64,000 nucleotides of DNA from TPA_inf: Saccharomyces. Its lineage: Eukaryota. The first letter of the stretch is position 1. Each line of letters begins with the position of its first letter. The stretch spans positions 192,001 through 256,000 of the forward strand of contig BK006934.2 of the NCBI GenBank assembly GCA_000146045.2. The letters run 5' to 3'. The notes under the pieces were generated by a model. That model worked only from the letters and a program-made list of their open reading frames with translations, was not told the DNA's origin and made no database searches. This document shows, in pieces, positions 3,551 to 44,952 of this stretch. Both the position numbers and the translations under genes were made by a program.

Positions 3551-5233
3551 ATGAATTGGTCTTTTCTACTACAGCTGGTAATAACAATATTGTTAATTGT
3601 GCTGGGCGCCAACTGGTTGCTAAGCTCTTTTCTACTTGATTTTAAGAGAGATTTAACAGGGGTGGCTTTGTCACAGCAATCTAGCATATCCAGTGTTCGT
3701 AAAGAAAATGAAACAGCATATTATCGAAGCATTTTAGTGCCCACAGGATTCCCATTGACGACAGGATTAGGGCTATCTTTAAAATACAAAATAAGAAATG
3801 GCAATTTCGGTGATGTTTGGAATGCCATAATGGAAGTTTCCAAGGGAAAAAACATAATTAAATTTACAGGAAGAGAAAAAAGTTATTCGTTGAGTGAACT
3901 TAATGGTATGGCCAAGCGCATATTTCCGAAACTTTCCAATAAGAATTTCAAAAATATCGGTATAGCTAATTCTATTGCTACCGTAGAGGGTTTTACTCTC
4001 TCCTTGGCTTCCATGATGACCTCTATAAGAACAGGTTCAATACCTCATTTCTTGCCAGCTGTTCCTAGACAACGACTAGAAGATGTTGATGTCCTGATCA
4101 TCGACTCATGGAAGTCTTTTAAGATGCTAAACGGCAGCGAGGATTGGTACAAGCTTATTGTTGTTTGCGATGATCCTATCGAATCACTACAATTTGATGC
4201 GAACTGTGATGTTATCACTTGGAAAGAACTTATCGACGGTTTTACCAAGGATACAGAGTACCAATACACCCCGCCAGATGACAACTCTGATGATAAGAAA
4301 CTTTTTGCATACGTAACTTCACCATGGAATGGAACTAATAGTTTTAATCAAATCTGTCTGGTGAGTAATATAGCGGAATTCATCAAAGGGTTCCCCTTGG
4401 GAAATGAATTGAATAGTAATGAATACCTAACCATTTCGACAAAATTGGCAAATTCTAGTGCAAGCCTACAAATTTGGGGAAAGCTTTTTGCAGTTTTGCT
4501 GCATGGTGGGTCTGCATCTTTCATCAATCCTACAACGATAGATTGCGAGTCGTTGCAAGAAACTACGTTACTGTTTACCGAAACAAAGGATGTTGTCAAA
4601 TTAATTGATTCTAATTCTAGAAGTGGGCTGCTGAATAAAATCTACTTATCCTGGGCCACGAACTTACTGAGCGAGGGTATTTTTACGAAAATTGCCAGAA
4701 TCGAGCCACATTCTCTTGAAAAATTAAGATGTGTTTATTTGGCAGATAATGTGAAAGATGCTGAGGTTATTTCGACATTTCCTGAAAAAATTCCTCAGCT
4801 AAAAAAGACTAACCGAAGAATCACCCCAAGCACTGAACAATTGAATAAAATAAGAGCTCAATTAGGATCCCGTGTAGTCCTCGAGTTATATTGTCCCTAC
4901 GCTATCATGGGACCTGTGGCACATACCAATTTTTATGACTATAGGGTTTTTGGAAAATCTGTGGACGATAACGTTGTATGTTATGGAACACTAAGTACAA
5001 CATTAGAAGGAAAAATGGTAGAAACGGAAACAAACCCTCATTTGAACATAGAGAAGAAGCAGGGTATGTTATGTATTCGTGGTTTTAGCATAGGTAAACC
5101 AGTAGAGTCCGATCGTTTAGAGAAAGCTTTGCATTTAGCTGAAAGGTTTGGAGGAGGTGAAGGATGGATGCCTCTAGTTGGCGTTTTTGGACTATTTGGC
5201 CAAGACGGTTGCTTATACATCTATAATCAATGA
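3551..5233 (+). CDS. Uncharacterised 560-aa protein with N-terminal transmembrane segment (YHR045W-like)
   Basis: Long ORF with a hydrophobic N-terminus (LLQLVITILLIVLGANWLLSSFLL) and no catalytic motif I recognise. Its position between DOG1 and INM1 matches YHR045W. Confidence 0.8.
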   Translation: MNWSFLLQLVITILLIVLGANWLLSSFLLDFKRDLTGVALSQQSSISSVRKENETAYYRSILVPTGFPLTTGLGLSLKYKIRNGNFGDVWNAIMEVSKGKNIIKFTGREKSYSLSELNGMAKRIFPKLSNKNFKNIGIANSIATVEGFTLSLASMMTSIRTGSIPHFLPAVPRQRLEDVDVLIIDSWKSFKMLNGSEDWYKLIVVCDDPIESLQFDANCDVITWKELIDGFTKDTEYQYTPPDDNSDDKKLFAYVTSPWNGTNSFNQICLVSNIAEFIKGFPLGNELNSNEYLTISTKLANSSASLQIWGKLFAVLLHGGSASFINPTTIDCESLQETTLLFTETKDVVKLIDSNSRSGLLNKIYLSWATNLLSEGIFTKIARIEPHSLEKLRCVYLADNVKDAEVISTFPEKIPQLKKTNRRITPSTEQLNKIRAQLGSRVVLELYCPYAIMGPVAHTNFYDYRVFGKSVDDNVVCYGTLSTTLEGKMVETETNPHLNIEKKQGMLCIRGFSIGKPVESDRLEKALHLAERFGGGEGWMPLVGVFGLFGQDGCLYIYNQ

Positions 5234-6739: not shown

Positions 6740-9310
6740 CTATTGATCATACTCATGCTCACGCAAGTAGGTAGCAACGATTTCACGATCTCTGCTCACC
6801 CATTGCGCCTTGGATCTAATAGTGTCTAAGGCTTGAGCCAGGGTTTGATCAAAACCTTTAGTGACCTTTCTACTATAGAACGCACTAATTTTTTCAAGGG
6901 CTTCAAAAGAGGTAAAATTAGTTAAACCCAATGTCAACACGCCACCCAACACAGGCGAGCCTGGCTGTAATCTCTTAGCAATTTCGTCCCAGTGTTCTTG
7001 CATCCAAGCCCATAACCTTTCAATACCCTTCTTATGAACTCTAATGCCTTGCATTGGGATGTAAAAATCTTGATTCAAAACTGTACCATCTAGCAGATAA
7101 GACAATGTCCTTTCTAAAAGTTCTTTGTCTTCAAATCTGCCCAAAGCTCTCAAAGCGATAATCTTTTCTTCTGACGAAACAGGGTTTTGATAGATGTTGA
7201 AAATCTTTTCGTAATTGTTTTCTCCGCCAAGTCTGGCAACGGTGTTGAAAACAACTGCCTTGAACAGTGCAGGTATGGCCTGTTTGTTCCCATTGGCGTA
7301 TTCCTCAAACATTTCTACCGCAATCGATTGCATTTTTTCATTGCCAGAAGTGCATGCGGCACTGAAAAGGGTCACTTTTAAACGTTGGATAGCAAAGGAG
7401 TCGTCTTCGCCAATATTCCACCCCAATTCAGAAAGTTTGTTAAGTACTAGATCCAAAGTAAATTTATCTAGAGCATTCAATATATCCTCTGGTTCGAAGA
7501 CCCAAGTAGATTTCAGAGCGGATAAACTATTAATGATTTGTTCCCAAACAACAAATGAATCCTCGTTTTTCCAATTAGAAATTAAATTCAAGAAGTTAGT
7601 AGTAGAGGTATAGCCAGATGCAGAAAGGGCTTTTGCATCTGCGACTAAGCCAACACGATCCTCTACGGATAATAAATTTGCCTGTTTGGATAGCTTAGCC
7701 CATCTTTCGTCAGAATAAGAGGTAATGAAAATACCAGATTGGTCACCATTAATCTTGAAGAACTCTTCATTCTTTAATTCGAAAGTAGCAGATTTTTCGT
7801 TCAATACCAATGTGTTATCGATACCTGTACTGTCTTTCAAAGCTAACAAAATGGGGTATATGGTTGTATCTTCCTCTTCTTTAACATCACCGGTACTTAA
7901 ATAACGGTGTTGAGTTAATGTGATTTTGTTCTTGTGTTCCTTGACAGATAACACTGGAAAACCAACACGTTTTGTCCAGATGTTCATCACCGAACAAACG
8001 TCCTTGCCAGAGGCATCTGCTAAGGCGTCCCACAAATCTCCGGTCTTTGCATTACCGTATTTGAATTTATTCAGGTATTGGGACACACCTTTAATAAAAG
8101 TCTCTTCACCCAACCATTTGGAAATCATCCTCAATAAAGAAGATCCTTTAGAATAAGAAATAGCATCAAAAATTTGATTGATTTCGTCCGCATTATTAAC
8201 GGGAACTTCAATTGGATGGGAAGATCTTAATGAATCTAAATTTAGAGCACGTTGTAAATTGTCAGTAACATATTGCTCCCAAACTTTCCATTCTGGTTGA
8301 AACTTGTTGCAAGAGTACCAAGACATCCAAGTGGCAAAACCTTCATTCAACCATAAGCCTTCCCACCAATCCATGGTGACCAAGTTGCCGAACCATTGGT
8401 GGGCTAGTTCATGCTGAATAACCTCAGCAACTCTTTGAATGCGATCTAAACTCGAATTTTCTATGTCTAATAACAAATCAATAACTCTATAAGTCACTAG
8501 CCCCCAGTTTTCCATAGCACCAGCAGAAAACTCATGAACTGCCACCATATCCATCTTTGGCAATGGATATTCTATGTTGAAGGTGTCCTCAAAGAATCTC
8601 AAGGTCCTAGCAGCTAAATTGGCTGCAAACTGACCAAATTTTTCGTCCCCTGGGGTAGAATAAACTCTTACTGGAATACGGAAATTATTGCTTTCCACGT
8701 ATCTCAGGTCAGCTACAATAAATGCTACTAAGTACGTAGACATCTTTGGAGTCGTGTTAAAAGTTGTATATTTCTTACCCTCTTTGATTGTTTCATTCCT
8801 GACATCCATGTTGGACAAATGAGTCAGAAACGATTCAGAGACCAAAGTTACTGCAAAAGTCGCCTTCAAATTTGGTTCGTCAAAACAAGGAAAGGCTCTT
8901 CTAGCATCTGTGGCTTCCATCTGAGTAGTAGCCATGTACTTCGTCTCCCCTGTGACTTTATCCGTATACTTAGCCCTGTAAAATCCCGCCATCTGATCAT
9001 TTAGAATACCGGAAAAGATAATTTCTAACTTCGCAGAAGGTCCTAGGTTTTCAAAAGTTCCATTAGGAAAGACAAGAGTAGCTTTTTGTTGGTTTTCGTT
9101 TTTGTTAACTTCAATGGCATTGACACCCTCAATACGTGCAGAATGGAAATCTATTTCTAAGTAATTTATTTGCACAGAGTTTATCGAATGATCATTAATC
9201 TGCAGGTCAATTTTTAATGACCCTTCAAACGTAAAAGCACGGAAATTAGGTTCTAGTGTAATGTCATAATGCAATGGGGTAACGTTGTTTGGCAGTACTT
9301 CACGGGACAT
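6740..9310 (-). CDS. AAP1: M1-family zinc aminopeptidase (arginine/alanine aminopeptidase), 856 aa
   Basis: Carries GAMEN and the HELAHQWFGN...E zinc-binding motif. The start is set at the internal Met (MSREVLPNN...) 16 codons inside the track ORF to match the known 856-aa length. Confidence 0.85.
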   Translation of the reverse strand: MSREVLPNNVTPLHYDITLEPNFRAFTFEGSLKIDLQINDHSINSVQINYLEIDFHSARIEGVNAIEVNKNENQQKATLVFPNGTFENLGPSAKLEIIFSGILNDQMAGFYRAKYTDKVTGETKYMATTQMEATDARRAFPCFDEPNLKATFAVTLVSESFLTHLSNMDVRNETIKEGKKYTTFNTTPKMSTYLVAFIVADLRYVESNNFRIPVRVYSTPGDEKFGQFAANLAARTLRFFEDTFNIEYPLPKMDMVAVHEFSAGAMENWGLVTYRVIDLLLDIENSSLDRIQRVAEVIQHELAHQWFGNLVTMDWWEGLWLNEGFATWMSWYSCNKFQPEWKVWEQYVTDNLQRALNLDSLRSSHPIEVPVNNADEINQIFDAISYSKGSSLLRMISKWLGEETFIKGVSQYLNKFKYGNAKTGDLWDALADASGKDVCSVMNIWTKRVGFPVLSVKEHKNKITLTQHRYLSTGDVKEEEDTTIYPILLALKDSTGIDNTLVLNEKSATFELKNEEFFKINGDQSGIFITSYSDERWAKLSKQANLLSVEDRVGLVADAKALSASGYTSTTNFLNLISNWKNEDSFVVWEQIINSLSALKSTWVFEPEDILNALDKFTLDLVLNKLSELGWNIGEDDSFAIQRLKVTLFSAACTSGNEKMQSIAVEMFEEYANGNKQAIPALFKAVVFNTVARLGGENNYEKIFNIYQNPVSSEEKIIALRALGRFEDKELLERTLSYLLDGTVLNQDFYIPMQGIRVHKKGIERLWAWMQEHWDEIAKRLQPGSPVLGGVLTLGLTNFTSFEALEKISAFYSRKVTKGFDQTLAQALDTIRSKAQWVSRDREIVATYLREHEYDQ

Positions 9311-12300
9311 GGTATTAGCTGAGAGGGCAATTTGGCTTGCTTGAACAGGAACCCTCAAAGAAAAATCACGAATTGAATAAGCTTCCCTGAAGATAATTCT
9401 AAATGATTAGCTAAGATTACTCATAAAGTCAAAAGTTTGATCGCTAACAAAAGGGAAAAAAACGGAAAAAAAATAAAAAAATGTGTCAAACTCCCACAGC
9501 CAAGTCCAAGAGTACGAAAAAAAACTTTCACAACGAGTTCAAAAAATGTGGGATGAAGACTCCCGTTTTTCACCGCCTAGAAAACAGCGTTTGCTGAGAA
9601 AAAAAATAAATCATCGAGAAGAAGTATGTCATCATAGGATGTTCCCATTGTAAGGTGATGTGTAACATACTCGAACAAAGAATGTATAGAGCTGAATATT
9701 TCTCCTTTAAATTTCAAAGAAAATGAGAAGGAAAATCTCAAACAGAAACTTCGTTCTTTTTCTCAAGTAAGCAAAAGCTTATTGAGACAAAGCGGAATAA
9801 CTACGATATTAATAACGTTGATGAAGCTCGAACAAAGTTAGCGTCGGTTATGCTTGCCTATATAAAGATATATTTGCCTTACATTTTCGTTGAACGTAGA
9901 ATGATTTTTGCTTTTAATAAATTTTTTGTTGTTCTTTCAGTGCTTCTTCAACTTTGATACGAAAGCAAGTGCATTAGTACAACAAGAACTGGCCACAACT
10001 ATACTATACTCATTTTTTCTTGCCCGTGTTTTAAATGTTTTCATCCACAGCATTTGATGGGATGATTGGAAGTGAGACGTTCGAGAAAATCCATATTTTG
10101 AGTCAAGAATTCAGATAATATACTGAGATGATTAGGTATGGCTGGGTTCTACAAAAACACAAATATCCGGCTAGCAATGATCACTGAGCAAATTAAAGCG
10201 TTAACTCACTCATTATTGTAGCTTATGCGTTTCTCCTCCTCTCTTTTTTTCCTCGAACCGGAGTGGAAGATCCAATAACGTAATATTACTGATGTTGTTA
10301 TTAAAGCTGGCAAAAATAACATGAGGCGTAAAACCGCACTGCGGTAAGATGAGGGTATAAGGTGGAGATCAGGCGAACAAGCTGTTCTAAATCATACATA
10401 TGTACAATGAGAACGTGTAACGATCCAATGAGCGTTTCATGATGCCATTGTTTAATCAGAGTGATGAAAAAGAAATATTTGCGACCTTTTTTCGTTACAT
10501 TGATCGTGAAATTTTAATCAAAGATAATATAAGGACGTGAGATATTTATCTTTTTACTTGAAATTAACAATAGAATTGCGCTAAGCGGAATAAGAGCTTT
10601 CGTAAACCTTTCTATTTGCACCATTGCGTCAACGTATAAAATGGTATGACCTTTACACAAACGCATGCTTATAATCTTATGTTTTTCATAGGGTGTAATT
10701 TGGTTGATGACGTAGTCTAAATTTGATGCTATCTGCAATTGAGGTACATATAAGAGGTCAATTTCGGGACCAACCCTTTTAATCGAAAAAAACGTAATTC
10801 ACTAGGGCAAGGGAGAACTTAGCAGCTAATATCGTAAACCTTTCATACTAAAAAAATGCACTTACCATCAACAAAAAACTCAGGACCAATTTCCAAGCTT
10901 TTCTAGGTGATTGCCTATAACACAAAAAGATTCGCTCATACATGAGATTTTTACATGTAATAGCAATTTGTTCCGATCAGTTGAAGGTCATCAACGCACG
11001 GCAGGTACATCCACACCTATCACAAAGCCCTTCAATAATTCACCTACGTAAAGTTATACCGAAACATGCAAAATCCATGAAAAATTCTGTATGATAACGA
11101 TCATATCCTTTTGTATTGGTGGTACGATGCTCAAAGATAGTTATTGTTGCACCTGAGGCAAAAGCGGAAATGAAAAATCCAGATGGGGCCAAAAGCAGAA
11201 GTATTGTGTACAACAATTGCTTCAGCAGTTTACCAAACCGTTTCCCAGCAATCATCAAAAGTTGCTTTAGCCACATTTCCGCAAGATATCTTTGTGGCTC
11301 AACGAAGAGGGCTATTCCAAATGCAATACAATACTAGCCGCTAGTGATCCATGCTTATAGGCAATTTGATTGATAACTGGCCGTTCTATTAAGGAGTCAA
11401 TGCTAACCACATATAATGCATATAGGATTTGGCCTCTGCTGACCGTAATACTAGACAAGGAATATAAAACAACAACGTAACCCAGCATAAAAACGATATA
11501 AATAAAAAAAGAAACCAGATCATAAAGTTTGAGGGCACATCCCTCATGGTTTCAAAATCTCGTACATTGACTCAAACCTCGAGATCTTGTTTAAACGAAC
11601 ATAAGAACAGCGGTACCAAGTGACACATTGCGTACTGTGTAGTATGCGCCGTATATAACTTTTTTTTTCTGAAGGTACTTTGAATTACAATCTATTTTTT
11701 ACAGTTCCTATGGCAGGGGTTGAAGATATTTGGGTCTGAACCATAGCAGGATTAGTGTTATAGTAGGTATGTGAATAGAAGCTAACAAAATGAGATGAAC
11801 CTCATACAAAGTCGTAGAGAAAACTGCTAACAGAAGAGCTGCGCCTTGAAATCGTATCTCTAAGCTTATAATAAATTGAAAGGAAAAAATACGTGGTAAA
11901 TGCAAGCGACCAAAAGGCTACGGCCCAACGCTAACCCGCCGATAGGTGCATAATCTAATTTACCTCCACCAGCAGGAGCCCTTTTTCTAAGTAATAAGCA
12001 AACCAGATAACTTACATCTTGCTGTAGGAAACAAAAGCCGGAATAATGGTTCACTCATATTCTTCGTGTGAAACACAGAAGAAATCCAATATTTGCTTCA
12101 GTATTTATCTCTAAAAATTGGTCCTACATTGGAAACCATAAACCAATTATAACCGGTGTACGAATTGTAAGCTAGTTCTGGAAATGTCATGTTGCGCAGG
12201 TAAAAGTGGAGCTGAATTGTATATCTGTTTTGATCATTATTATCCCTCTGGGTGAGTGGAAATATCAATAAAATGCAATGGCACATTTAATATCCTTCTC

Positions 12301-12606
12301 TTAATTCCGTGATTTATAACATCTTGATGCCAGAAACACCTTTCGGATCCGGCAATAAAGCGGAGATTAGCACGCTTTTCGCCGGTCCTACGGATTTAGT
12401 GTTGGCTATTGTTGAGATTAGTAATACGCAGAGAATTTTTCTACCGGTGAAGCGACCATCTCAGATTATTAGGTCAAGCAATAACACTTGTTATTAGATG
12501 CGTTACGTTCACCTGGACCCTATATAAAGGCATATTTGCCTTACATTTGGTGTATGGTATCACCTTGTATACTAAGAACATATATATGCAGATATAACAA
12601 CAGGAT

Positions 12607-14151
12607 ATGGTTGCAGAATTTCAAATAGCGAGTGCACAGTCATCGGCATTGACATCTACTGAAGAAGAGCATTGTTCAATAAACTCAGACAAAGCCGCAA
12701 AACTGGATCTGGAATTGACCAGTGAACGAAAAAATGACGGCAAACAATCGCATGAAGTGACCTTCAACGAGGACATCGCGGACCCAGAAGATATAGCACG
12801 GCATATGAGCACCGCCCGCCGGTATTATATTTCCTCGTTAATTACATTCACATCGATGGTAATTACGATGATCTCGTCCAGCTGGACGCTTCCTTCAACG
12901 CACATAATCGAACACTTTCATATTTCGCACGAAGTCAGCACTCTGGGAATTACGCTTTATGTGTTTGGGCTCGGTATAGGACCTTTATTTCTGTCTCCAC
13001 TAAGTGAACTATATGGACGAAGGATCACATTTTTATACGCCCTTACGCTCAGTATCATATGGCAGTGTTTGACCATTTGGTCCAAGACCATTACGGGTGT
13101 CATGTTTGGCAGATTTCTATCCGGGTTTTTTGGTTCAGCCTTTCTAAGTGTGGCTGGCGGCGCCATTGCCGATATATTCGACAAAGACCAAATTGGTATT
13201 CCTATGGCAATATACACTACATCGGCCTTTTTGGGGCCCTCTTTAGGACCAATCATTGGTGGAGCCTTATACCATCAAAGTTATAAATGGACATTTATCA
13301 CACTTCTCATCACTTCTGGATGTTGTCTCGTTATGATCATCTTTACCATACCTGAAACCTACAAACCAATGCTGTTAATACGTAAAGCTAAGAGATTGAG
13401 GAAAGAGAAAAATGATCAACGGTATTATGCTGTCCTGGAAGTCACCCGCGAACAGACTTCCTTACTTTCCGCAATCTTTCTCTCAACCAAAAGACCCTTT
13501 GGCCTGTTACTTCGAGACCGAATGATGGGTGTGCTTTGCTTCTATACTGGATTGGAACTTGCCATAATATATTTATATTTCGTAGCGTTTCCTTATGTGT
13601 TCAAGAAACTTTACAACTTTGGGCCCATGGAGATTGCATGCTCCTATATCGGTATTATGGTCGGCATGATACTCTCGGCTCCTACTTGCTTGTTATTCCA
13701 AAAAACGTTTGAGTGGAGAGTCAAAAGAAATAATGGCGTCAAGACTCCCGAAATGAGATTCGAGCCTCTGTTCTACGGCGCCTTTTTGACCCCAGTTGGG
13801 CTCTTCATTTTTGCATTCACCTGCTACAAGCATGTCCATTGGATTGCACCAATTATAGGCAGTGCAATTTTCGGTTCAGGTGTTTATTTCGTCTTTACCG
13901 GTGTTTTTGCGTATACAGTGGATGCCTATAGAAGATATGCAGCTTCTGGAATGGCTTGTAACACATTTGTGAGATGCATAATGGCCGGTGTCTTCCCTCT
14001 TTTCGGACTCCAGATGTACAAGTCAATGGGAGTGAATTGGGCCGGCTTTCTCTTGGCAATGGTGACCGTAGCGATGATTCCTGTCCCATTTCTGTTTACC
14101 AAATACGGTGCCCGACTGAGAGCCAAGTCGCCGTATGCATGGGATGATTGA
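12607..14151 (+). CDS. YHK8: Major-facilitator-superfamily drug:H+ antiporter-like transporter, 514 aa
   Basis: Multi-TM MFS protein with a long hydrophilic N-terminus. A TATA element lies ~85 bp upstream. Confidence 0.85.
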   Translation: MVAEFQIASAQSSALTSTEEEHCSINSDKAAKLDLELTSERKNDGKQSHEVTFNEDIADPEDIARHMSTARRYYISSLITFTSMVITMISSSWTLPSTHIIEHFHISHEVSTLGITLYVFGLGIGPLFLSPLSELYGRRITFLYALTLSIIWQCLTIWSKTITGVMFGRFLSGFFGSAFLSVAGGAIADIFDKDQIGIPMAIYTTSAFLGPSLGPIIGGALYHQSYKWTFITLLITSGCCLVMIIFTIPETYKPMLLIRKAKRLRKEKNDQRYYAVLEVTREQTSLLSAIFLSTKRPFGLLLRDRMMGVLCFYTGLELAIIYLYFVAFPYVFKKLYNFGPMEIACSYIGIMVGMILSAPTCLLFQKTFEWRVKRNNGVKTPEMRFEPLFYGAFLTPVGLFIFAFTCYKHVHWIAPIIGSAIFGSGVYFVFTGVFAYTVDAYRRYAASGMACNTFVRCIMAGVFPLFGLQMYKSMGVNWAGFLLAMVTVAMIPVPFLFTKYGARLRAKSPYAWDD

Positions 14152-17474: not shown

Positions 17475-17645
17475 ATGAAAAGGGACCTAATTGGTCCGGT
17501 CAAAGCATTAATAAAGATCAACAATTGCTCTTGCTTATCAAGGTGCCAGATCTCAAGGTTACCTCATTTCTTTACATTTCATCCACATTTTAGCACACTT
17601 ATTTATTATTACAATTTGAAAAATTGTATCACTTCTGAGACTTAG
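17475..17645 (+). CDS. Possible small protein (56 aa) between SMF2 and COX6 (YHR050W-A-like)
   Basis: Small ORF starting at the second Met of the 60-aa track ORF 17463-17645. I only weakly recall an annotated 56-aa micro-ORF at this position, and the sequence itself gives no independent support. Confidence 0.25.
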   Translation: MKRDLIGPVKALIKINNCSCLSRCQISRLPHFFTFHPHFSTLIYYYNLKNCITSET

Positions 17646-44380: not shown

Positions 44381-44952
44381 AGCGATCTGCTCTTGCAGTT
44401 TGCCGTGGGAGGAAAAAGGCAAAAAGGCGACCATTAGAAAAAGAAACGAGATGACTAACACCTTTATCTTCGAGAAGGCGCGGGGCTGACAGGGCACTGC
44501 GCGATGCGTCATACTACTTGAATACAACACAACCCGTCTTCTGTTATATAAAGAAGAAGAATAAATTAGGAAGTAGGGGGAAAAGGCTTATAGTGTAAAA
44601 GTATTTTAGTTTGTTGTTGTAATTTCGTCTTTTCTCTCACTACCGTAACAACGTGGTAGTTGGCAGAATATATATATTCTTGGCAACCTAGTTGTTACTC
44701 AAATAGAAGAAAAAGCAAGTTTCTCCCTATTTATTTGGTTCTCCCTATTCACTCGCATTTAGCATTGGCATACTTTTTTATATTTTTTTCGTTTTGTTTT
44801 TGGTTTTCCTAGGTTCGATATAGTTATAACAATGCACTCTTCCGTCTTCTAAGTTTTCCTTTTATTAAGGATGCGCGCAATAGAAGACACAGGCAATAAT
44901 AGAATTTATTAGGGTATTATTGTAAGGATAGGCATTACAAAGATAAAATAAG

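What the first reader, a model, noticed from the sequence alone, without database searches (positions are those of the whole stretch)
9311..12606. 3.3-kb gene-free interval with a duplicated, diverged TATA-containing block
The AAP1-YHK8 intergenic region is unusually long for this gene-dense region. It contains two copies of a conserved block, cctatataaagatatatttgccttacatttt at 9857-9887 and ccctatataaaggcatatttgccttacattt at 12519-12548. Weaker flanking homology extends upstream to an aaagcgga(a/g)(t/a)(a/t)a motif (9789 and 12357), with ~90 extra bp inserted in copy B. Copy B is the core promoter of YHK8, with its TATA ~85 bp from the ATG. Copy A has the same orientation but no ORF longer than 25 codons downstream. 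It could be an orphan promoter for a non-coding transcript, the relic of a segmental duplication whose gene has decayed, or a shared regulatory module.
Basis: seen in the sequence. Interest (0 to 1): 0.5.

Follow-up and report, generated by a model that had tools for sequence, protein, structure and literature searches.

The report
Species-specific filler DNA with promoter-core copy
The unusually long gap between the yeast genes AAP1 and YHK8 exists because about 2.5 kb of non-coding DNA of unknown origin was added in the Saccharomyces cerevisiae lineage, and it carries a young 30-base copy of YHK8's TATA-box region; this looks like ordinary, probably neutral genome evolution, not a hidden gene.

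Summary
The core observation holds. The AAP1-YHK8 spacer (9311-12606, 3296 bp) has no gene. It contains one significant internal repeat, a 30-mer at 9857-9886 and 12519-12548 (28/30 identical, E 2e-7).

The claimed weaker flanking homology is not above chance.

The spacer is 874 bp in S. mikatae, about 810 bp in S. eubayanus and S. uvarum, about 0.7 kb in S. kudriavzevii and 636 bp in Kazachstania africana. It is 3296 bp in all 15 S. cerevisiae sequences examined. Only 9315-9595 and 12346-12601 align to the other species. The 2.75 kb between them replaces about 0.3 kb, a net gain of about 2.45 kb after the split from S. mikatae.

This added DNA has no Pfam, Rfam, tRNA, PDB-sequence or YHK8/AAP1-profile match. 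It varies within the species as fast as other non-coding DNA.

Copy B is the conserved YHK8 TATA region. Copy A lies in the species-specific DNA and is absent from the four other Saccharomyces species.

Best reading: neutral inserted DNA plus a short, young copy of the YHK8 core promoter, not a decayed gene duplicate. Whether copy A fires a non-coding transcript is untested. The S. paradoxus state and the donor of the DNA remain unknown.

The parts
9311..9595 (-). Conserved AAP1-proximal part of the spacer (AAP1 5' region and promoter)
   Evidence: nhmmer with a profile of the S. mikatae, S. kudriavzevii, S. eubayanus and S. uvarum spacers hits 9315-9595 at E 3e-29. blastn to S. mikatae covers 9000-9559 at 74% identity.
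9596..12345 (.). S. cerevisiae-lineage-specific non-coding segment ('X'). It occupies the place of about 270-310 bp in the other species, a net gain of about 2.45 kb
   Evidence: No profile match between 9596 and 12345. The best one-gap alignment to S. mikatae removes 2437-2446 bp. The segment is present at 98.8-100% identity in 10 strain assemblies and 4 metagenome contigs. It has no Pfam, Rfam, tRNA or PDB-sequence match. It carries 2.70 SNP sites per 100 bp among 15 sequences, against 0.46-1.23 in the coding flanks.
9857..9886 (+). Copy A: a 30-bp copy of the YHK8 TATA block (TATATAAA at 9859-9866), inside the species-specific segment
   Evidence: 28/30 identical to copy B. No match with up to 9 substitutions in the S. 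mikatae, S. kudriavzevii, S. eubayanus or S. uvarum loci. Polymorphic at 9877 in two S. cerevisiae sequences.
10469..10496 (+). Possible weak third partial copy (21/28 to copy A), of marginal significance
   Evidence: the repeat finder family D1. My rough binomial estimate gives about 0.003-0.02 expected by chance. Not followed further.
12346..12606 (+). Conserved YHK8 promoter and 5' leader. It includes AAAGCGGAGATTAGC (12357-12371), a CCG..CGG element, and the invariant CTATTGTT at 12406-12413
   Evidence: nhmmer hit 12346-12601 at E 5e-33. Alignments. The CTATTGTT coordinates were read. YHK8 is listed among Rox1-mediated oxygen-responsive genes in PMC2763219. Assigning the ATTGTT core to Rox1 is my inference.
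12519..12548 (+). Copy B: the YHK8 core-promoter block (TATATAAA at 12521-12528, 86 bp upstream of the ATG at 12607)
   Evidence: The ATATAA core is invariant in five Saccharomyces species, and the 3' half is partly conserved in S. mikatae.
12607..14151 (+). YHK8 (DHA1-family MFS transporter), 514 aa
   Evidence: ORF. Homologues carry PF07690 and are named Yhk8p.
6740..9310 (-). AAP1 (M1 aminopeptidase), 856 aa
   Evidence: ORF. Identical to AAP1_YEAST cluster members.

Best explanation
The interval is an ordinary divergent promoter region of about 0.8 kb for AAP1 and YHK8. On the S. cerevisiae branch, after the split from S. mikatae, its middle gained about 2.45 kb net of non-coding DNA of unknown source. 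2.75 kb of non-alignable sequence now stands where the other species have about 0.3 kb.

The added DNA has no detectable gene, RNA family or repeat family. It evolves within the species like unconstrained non-coding DNA, so it is most likely neutral filler.

Copy B is the ancestral, conserved YHK8 TATA region. Copy A is a short (about 30 bp) and young copy of it, made in the S. cerevisiae lineage. It arose either as a by-product of the rearrangement that added the DNA or by a later short templated or gene-conversion patch.

Copy A is not part of a longer duplication and has none of the conserved upstream YHK8 elements. At most it would support weak cryptic plus-strand transcription toward YHK8.

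Shown: the repeat, the lineage-specific gain, the absence of coding or RNA homology, and the high polymorphism. Inferred: neutrality, the direction B to A, and the mechanism of copying.
For: - Repeat: 28/30 identical, E 2e-7, 0 of 100 shuffles. The flanks are not homologous.
- Spacer length: 3296 bp in 15 S. cerevisiae sequences. It is 874 bp in S. mikatae, 813 bp in S. eubayanus, 805 bp in S. uvarum and about 0.7 kb from the AAP1-promoter remnant to YHK8 in S. kudriavzevii. It is 636 bp in K. africana and 1499 bp in L. meyersii, with the same INM1-AAP1-YHK8-FSH1 gene order.
- Conserved flanks stop at 9595 and restart at 12346. The one-gap model gives X = 2437-2446 bp.
- Copy B aligns with the TATA regions of the other species. 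Copy A has no counterpart there.
- Copy A is closer to S. cerevisiae copy B (28/30) than copy B is to the S. mikatae, S. kudriavzevii or S. eubayanus blocks, which places the copying on the S. cerevisiae branch.
- No coding or RNA signal in X: Pfam on six frames, YHK8 and AAP1 profile HMMs, PDB sequences, Rfam, tRNA.
- The longest open stretch (97 aa) matches only S. cerevisiae ab initio ORFs, plus spurious tandem-repeat proteins.
- X has 2.70 SNP sites per 100 bp, against 1.13 in the conserved YHK8 promoter and 0.46-1.23 in coding sequence. Both copies are themselves polymorphic.
- The spacer is used as a CRISPR integration site, CS11 (PMC12098746), which suggests it tolerates disruption (my inference).
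Against: - The source of the 2.45 kb was not found, so 'insertion of filler' is a description rather than a demonstrated mechanism.
- A 30-bp near-perfect copy is long for a junction microhomology. Its position relative to the true left edge of X is uncertain: at the junction in the S. mikatae one-gap model, but about 260 bp inside by the profile criterion.
- Copy A keeps a canonical TATA box. AAGCGGA heptamers are enriched on the same strand, and there is a possible third partial copy. Either could hint at regulatory content.
- No transcript data were examined.
- S. paradoxus was not available, so the age and the between-species constraint of X are unknown.
Confidence: 0.55

Rival explanations
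1. Copy A is a functional orphan promoter. It drives a plus-strand non-coding transcript through the species-specific DNA toward the YHK8 promoter and modulates YHK8, and perhaps AAP1, by transcriptional interference, as a tandem upstream promoter does at SRG1-SER3.
For: - Canonical TATATAAA, plus 20 bp identical to the working YHK8 core promoter, in the same orientation and 2.66 kb upstream.
- No ORF follows it.
- Present in all 15 S. cerevisiae sequences.
- AAGCGGA, which is part of a conserved YHK8 upstream element, recurs four times on the same strand.
Against: - Absent from four related species.
- The surrounding DNA shows no reduced polymorphism, and copy A itself is polymorphic.
- No conserved upstream activating sequence accompanies it.
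- No transcript evidence was found in the papers searched.
Confidence: 0.2
2. The interval is the decayed upstream copy of a tandem or segmental duplication that included the YHK8 promoter and gene. Only the TATA block has remained recognisable.
For: - Same orientation of the two blocks.
- AAAGCGGA lies upstream of both.
- The distance between the copies (2662 bp) could hold a gene of YHK8's size.
Against: - The flanks next to a 93%-identical block should also be about 90% identical, but they are at chance level.
- tblastn with Yhk8p gives nothing better than E 0.85. The YHK8-family HMM gives nothing better than E 0.21 on any six-frame piece.
- By contrast, the S. kudriavzevii AAP1 relic is still found at E 6e-48.
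- X shows no similarity to the rest of the window.
Confidence: 0.07
3. The long spacer is ancestral, and the short spacers of the other species result from independent deletions.
For: None specific. L. meyersii has a somewhat longer spacer of 1.5 kb.
Against: - It would need at least three independent deletions with similar end points, in S. mikatae, S. kudriavzevii and the S. eubayanus/S. uvarum clade, plus K. africana.
- The roughly 270-bp middle segment shared by those four Saccharomyces species has no counterpart in S. cerevisiae.
Confidence: 0.03

Closest known systems
Lineage-specific intergenic insertions and 'filler' DNA captured during double-strand-break repair in yeast (mitochondrial, Ty cDNA or other fragments). 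Cited from my own knowledge of the literature, not read here.
   Same: A block of DNA is present in one lineage only, sits in an intergenic region, carries no function-related signature, and is accompanied by a short duplication near the event.
   Different: - X is much larger than typical captured fragments.
- At 36.8% G+C it is unlike yeast mitochondrial DNA, which I recall as about 17% (for X).
- No Ty Gag or Pol relic and no tRNA gene nearby.
- The donor was not identified.
SRG1-SER3-type tandem promoter interference (an upstream TATA-driven non-coding transcript that reads into a downstream promoter). From my own knowledge.
   Same: A TATA box in the same orientation upstream of a regulated gene, with no ORF behind it.
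   Different: - The distance is 2.66 kb rather than a few hundred bp.
- No transcript has been shown.
- The element is not conserved beyond S. cerevisiae among the species examined.
Yeast gene relics: decayed pseudogenes in intergenic regions. An example was seen here in the S. kudriavzevii AAP1 remnant.
   Same: An unusually long 'empty' interval next to intact genes.
   Different: A true relic of comparable age is readily detected by protein similarity: AAP1 in S. kudriavzevii at E 6e-48. X gives nothing with Pfam, PDB sequences or family HMMs.

Membership tests
Decayed segmental or tandem duplicate of YHK8 (pseudogene plus promoter) | Homology extends beyond the short block into the flanks | tested here: not met
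   Local alignment of the 100-200 bp flanks against 500 shuffles gives z 1.0-1.7. Self-BLAST finds only the 30-mer.
Decayed segmental or tandem duplicate of YHK8 (pseudogene plus promoter) | Residual protein-level similarity to the parent gene downstream of the copied promoter | tested here: not met
   tblastn with Yhk8p gives best E 0.85, on the wrong strand. An HMM of 120 YHK8 homologues gives best E 0.21.
TATA-containing RNA polymerase II core promoter | Canonical TATA box (TATAWAWR) | tested here: met
   TATATAAA at 9859-9866 (copy A) and 12521-12528 (copy B).
TATA-containing RNA polymerase II core promoter | Conserved at the orthologous position upstream of the gene in related species | tested here: met
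   Met for copy B only: ATATAA is invariant in five species. Copy A has no orthologue in S. mikatae, S. kudriavzevii, S. eubayanus or S. uvarum.
TATA-containing RNA polymerase II core promoter | A transcription start site 40-120 bp downstream | not testable with these tools
   No TSS or RNA-seq data were available. The literature searches found nothing for this interval.
Ty retrotransposon or solo-LTR insertion | Gag/Pol coding remnants, or proximity to a tRNA gene (for Ty1-Ty4) | tested here: not met
   No Pfam hit in six frames. No tRNA gene in the whole 64-kb window. Similarity to LTR sequences themselves could not be tested because no LTR library was available.
Known structured RNA gene (snoRNA, other Rfam families) | A covariance-model match | tested here: not met
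   The only match is mir-246, at 22 bits against a gathering score of 60 and E 0.25.
Replication origin (ARS) | An 11/11 match to the ARS consensus WTTTAYRTTTW | tested here: not met
   The single match in the window is at 44776, outside the interval. This is a weak test, because functional origins tolerate mismatches.

The most novel reading that the evidence does not exclude
The 2.75-kb S. cerevisiae-specific segment is a young, lineage-specific non-coding RNA locus. A co-opted copy of the YHK8 core promoter (copy A) fires a plus-strand transcript that runs into the conserved YHK8 promoter. This would give S. cerevisiae a species-specific layer of control over a hypoxia-, hydroxyurea- and azole-responsive transporter gene.
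Probability: 0.12. Interest if true: 0.55.

Novelty: new member of a known kind. Interest (0 to 1): 0.27.

Why it matters
The result explains an oddly long 'empty' interval in a gene-dense part of yeast chromosome VIII. The interval is a recent, species-specific gain of non-coding DNA, not a hidden or decayed gene.

It also shows that the second TATA block is a young 30-bp copy, not an ancestral promoter.

This is useful for annotation: no gene should be called there, although ab initio pipelines do call ORFs in it. It is also useful for people who use this spacer as a neutral integration site.

If copy A proved to be active, it would be a small, datable example of promoter-core duplication creating a new non-coding transcription unit. 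As it stands, the finding is ordinary.

Tried and rejected
- A minus-strand membrane-protein pseudogene at 10500-12300 was suggested by a run of hydrophobic ORF pieces. Pfam on the pieces and on all six frames found nothing. The hydrophobicity probably reflects the T-richness of that strand, inferred from the positive AT skew.
- A YHK8 or AAP1 relic: profile HMMs were negative.
- An 8-bp target-site duplication (AAAGCGGA) flanking the insert was rejected. Homology with S. mikatae on the right side starts left of 12357, at about 12335-12348.
- Extending left-side homology to 9900, which would place copy A exactly at the junction, is not significant. 9787-9906 against S. mikatae gives p about 0.09, the same as a control inside X.
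- Codon periodicity: X has no period-3 signal (SNR 0.3-0.9, against 3.5-18.6 for real genes). The S. kudriavzevii AAP1 relic control is also weak (0.9-2.0), so this test has little power and I give it little weight.
- Mutual-information periodicity did not separate even real genes.
- Donor search: nothing in the rest of the window or in the S. mikatae, S. kudriavzevii, S. eubayanus, S. uvarum and APE2-region loci. Nothing in the plasmid collection. The 97-aa open stretch matched only S. cerevisiae ORFs in 5.8 billion proteins and in 1.84 billion representatives; the other hits there are tandem-repeat artefacts.
- S. paradoxus could not be obtained. It is hidden inside the 90% clusters. An exact look-up of COX6 returned only S. 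cerevisiae. A metagenome scan with a conserved YHK8 pattern returned four S. cerevisiae contigs.

Full report
**Identity of the region.** The window is Saccharomyces cerevisiae chromosome VIII. The ORF at 6740-9310 (minus strand) is AAP1, identical to AAP1_YEAST cluster members. The ORF at 12607-14151 (plus strand) is YHK8, whose homologues are named Yhk8p and carry the MFS_1 domain. The spacer 9311-12606 is 3296 bp. It is the largest gap between ORFs of at least 120 aa in the window; the next is 1459 bp and the median is 355 bp.

**Check of the observation.**
- A self-comparison of 9311-12700 gives one significant repeat: 9857-9886 against 12519-12548, 28/30 identical, E 2.4e-7.
- The degenerate 30-mer occurs exactly twice in 64 kb and never in 100 shuffles.
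- Both copies contain TATATAAA. In copy B it lies 86 bp upstream of the YHK8 ATG.
- The claim that weaker homology continues upstream to AAAGCGGA does not hold as an alignment. Smith-Waterman scores of the flanks on either side fall inside the shuffle distribution (z 1.0-1.7). The duplicated unit is therefore about 30 bp.
- The heptamer AAGCGGA is nevertheless over-represented: 4 plus-strand copies in the interval (9790, 10583, 11162, 12358), against about 0.26 expected.
- A marginal third partial copy of the block lies at 10469-10496, 21/28 identical to copy A.

**Is anything encoded?** Nothing was found.
- Stop-free stretches reach 97 codons at most.
- Pfam finds nothing in the ORF pieces or in all six frames.
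- Rfam gives only a sub-threshold microRNA match.
- There is no tRNA gene in the whole window.
- Six-frame translations find nothing among PDB sequences.
- The 97-aa stretch matches only ab initio ORFs called at this same locus in S. cerevisiae assemblies, and nothing genuine among 1.84 billion representatives. The remaining hits there are tandem-repeat proteins.
- Profile HMMs built from 120 YHK8 and 120 AAP1 homologues find no remnant. tblastn with Yhk8p gives E 0.85 at best.
- X lacks codon periodicity. The positive control, the S. kudriavzevii AAP1 relic, is also weak, so I give this test little weight.

**Comparative evidence, which changes the picture.** I fetched the orthologous loci through the neighbouring proteins.

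| Species | AAP1-YHK8 spacer |
|---|---|
| S. cerevisiae (15 sequences) | 3296 bp |
| S. mikatae | 874 bp |
| S. eubayanus | 813 bp |
| S. uvarum | 805 bp |
| S. kudriavzevii | about 0.7 kb (AAP1 promoter remnant to YHK8) |
| Kazachstania africana | 636 bp |
| Lachancea meyersii | 1499 bp |

- In S. kudriavzevii AAP1 itself is a truncated relic.
- K. africana and L. meyersii keep the INM1-AAP1-YHK8-FSH1 gene order, so the adjacency and a short spacer are ancestral.
- The 15 S. cerevisiae sequences are the window, ten strain assemblies and four metagenome contigs. All carry the 3.3-kb form at 98.8-100% identity.
- A profile of the four non-cerevisiae Saccharomyces spacers matches S. cerevisiae only at 9315-9595 (E 3e-29) and 12346-12601 (E 5e-33). 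About 270 profile positions in the middle have no counterpart.
- The best single-gap alignment to S. mikatae removes 2437-2446 bp.
- So about 2.45 kb net were gained on the S. cerevisiae branch after the split from S. mikatae. S. paradoxus could not be obtained, so the event may or may not predate that split.

**The two copies in this frame.**
- Copy B sits in the conserved YHK8 promoter. Its ATATAA core is invariant in five species, and its 3' half is partly conserved in S. mikatae.
- Upstream of copy B lie conserved elements: AAGCGGAGATTAGC, a CCG..CGG element, and an invariant CTATTGTT at 12406-12413. The last fits YHK8's listing among Rox1-mediated oxygen-responsive genes (PMC2763219), but the site assignment is my inference.
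- Copy A lies inside the non-alignable segment and has no counterpart in the other species, even allowing 9 substitutions.
- Copy A is more similar to S. cerevisiae copy B (28/30) than copy B is to its own orthologues. Copy A was therefore copied from B, or homogenised with it, on the S. cerevisiae branch.
- Its position relative to the real edge of the inserted DNA is uncertain. It is at the junction in the S. mikatae one-gap model (left end 9883-9906), but 9787-9906 is not significantly similar to S. mikatae, and the profile boundary is 9595.

**Constraint within the species.** Among 15 sequences X has 2.70 SNP sites per 100 bp. That equals the AAP1-side spacer (2.73) and exceeds the conserved YHK8 promoter (1.13) and coding sequence (0.46-1.23). 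Both 30-mers are themselves polymorphic. This fits unconstrained DNA. The spacer is also used as a CRISPR integration site, CS11 (PMC12098746).

**Explanation.**
- The most likely account (about 0.55) is a lineage-specific gain of neutral non-coding DNA, together with a short, young copy of the YHK8 core promoter. The copy would be a scar of the rearrangement or a short templated or gene-conversion patch.
- The reading of a functional orphan promoter with an interfering non-coding RNA remains open (about 0.2) because no transcript data could be examined.
- The decayed-duplicate reading (about 0.07) is contradicted by the non-homologous flanks and by the lack of any YHK8 remnant. A relic of comparable age, AAP1 in S. 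kudriavzevii, is still detected at E 6e-48.
- An ancestral long spacer with repeated deletions is unparsimonious (about 0.03).
- The donor of the 2.45 kb was not found. There is no similarity to the rest of the window, to the other species' loci or to plasmid records. A whole-genome search was not possible with these tools.

**Verdict.** The repeat is real, the flanking homology is not, and the interval is long because of a recent species-specific gain of apparently neutral DNA. This is a new instance of a known kind of event and of modest interest. The open points are the donor sequence, the S. paradoxus state, and whether copy A initiates transcription.

Noticed in passing
L001:8413-9298 (S. 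kudriavzevii IFO 1802), minus strand: AAP1 is a pseudogene in S. kudriavzevii. Only remnants of residues about 535-834 survive, at 42-59% identity and in several frames. The N-terminal roughly 530 codons are gone, while the AAP1 promoter region (L001:9315-9522) is retained. No AAP1 gene is called in either assembly.
   Followed up: partly
window 9790, 10583, 11162, 12358 (all plus strand): The heptamer AAGCGGA occurs four times in the 3.3-kb spacer, against about 0.26 expected. The copy at 12358 is part of a motif conserved across Saccharomyces (AAGCGGAGATTAGC). Two others share an 11-mer, AAGCGGAATAA. This may be a zinc-cluster-type factor site. The factor was not identified.
   Followed up: partly
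window 10469-10496: A possible third, degenerate copy of the 3' part of the block (AAAGAAATATTTGCGACCTTTTTTCGTT, 21/28 to copy A). It is of marginal significance.
   Followed up: partly
window 12380-12413: The conserved YHK8 promoter carries a CCG..CGG element (CGCCGGTCCTACGG) and an invariant CTATTGTT (12406-12413) in all five Saccharomyces species. The latter resembles the Rox1 ATTGTT core, and YHK8 is listed as a Rox1-class hypoxic gene (PMC2763219).
   Followed up: partly
window 12554-12628: An upstream ATG lies 33 bp after the YHK8 TATA box. It opens a 24-codon ORF that overlaps the YHK8 start codon in another frame. Whether it is inside the mRNA depends on the unmapped transcription start site.
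   Followed up: no
window 11040-12054 (equivalent to L009:3348-3796 and L014:3336-3572, 4004-4350): Some S. cerevisiae assemblies carry ab initio gene calls (78, 103, 136 and 141 aa, some spliced) inside the species-specific DNA. They have no Pfam domain and no homologue outside S. cerevisiae, so they are probably false gene models.
   Followed up: yes
L008-L017, downstream of CIC1 (window about 20.5 kb onward): The number of CUP1 (metallothionein) repeat units differs widely among the ten S. cerevisiae assemblies, from none called to at least five. This is the well-known CUP1 copy-number variation.
   Followed up: no
window 1-64000: No tRNA gene was found in the entire 64-kb window, which makes a Ty1-Ty4 origin for the extra DNA less likely.
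   Followed up: no
protein cluster of COX6 (cluster 3): The 90%-identity cluster that holds Cox6p (148 aa) also lists the unrelated-looking 56-aa YHR050W-A proteins encoded just upstream (window about 17475-17645). This is an odd clustering result that I did not examine.
   Followed up: no
L025:3502-5000 (Lachancea meyersii): The AAP1-YHK8 spacer of this pre-duplication yeast is 1.5 kb, about twice that of the Saccharomyces species other than S. cerevisiae. Its content was not examined.
   Followed up: no
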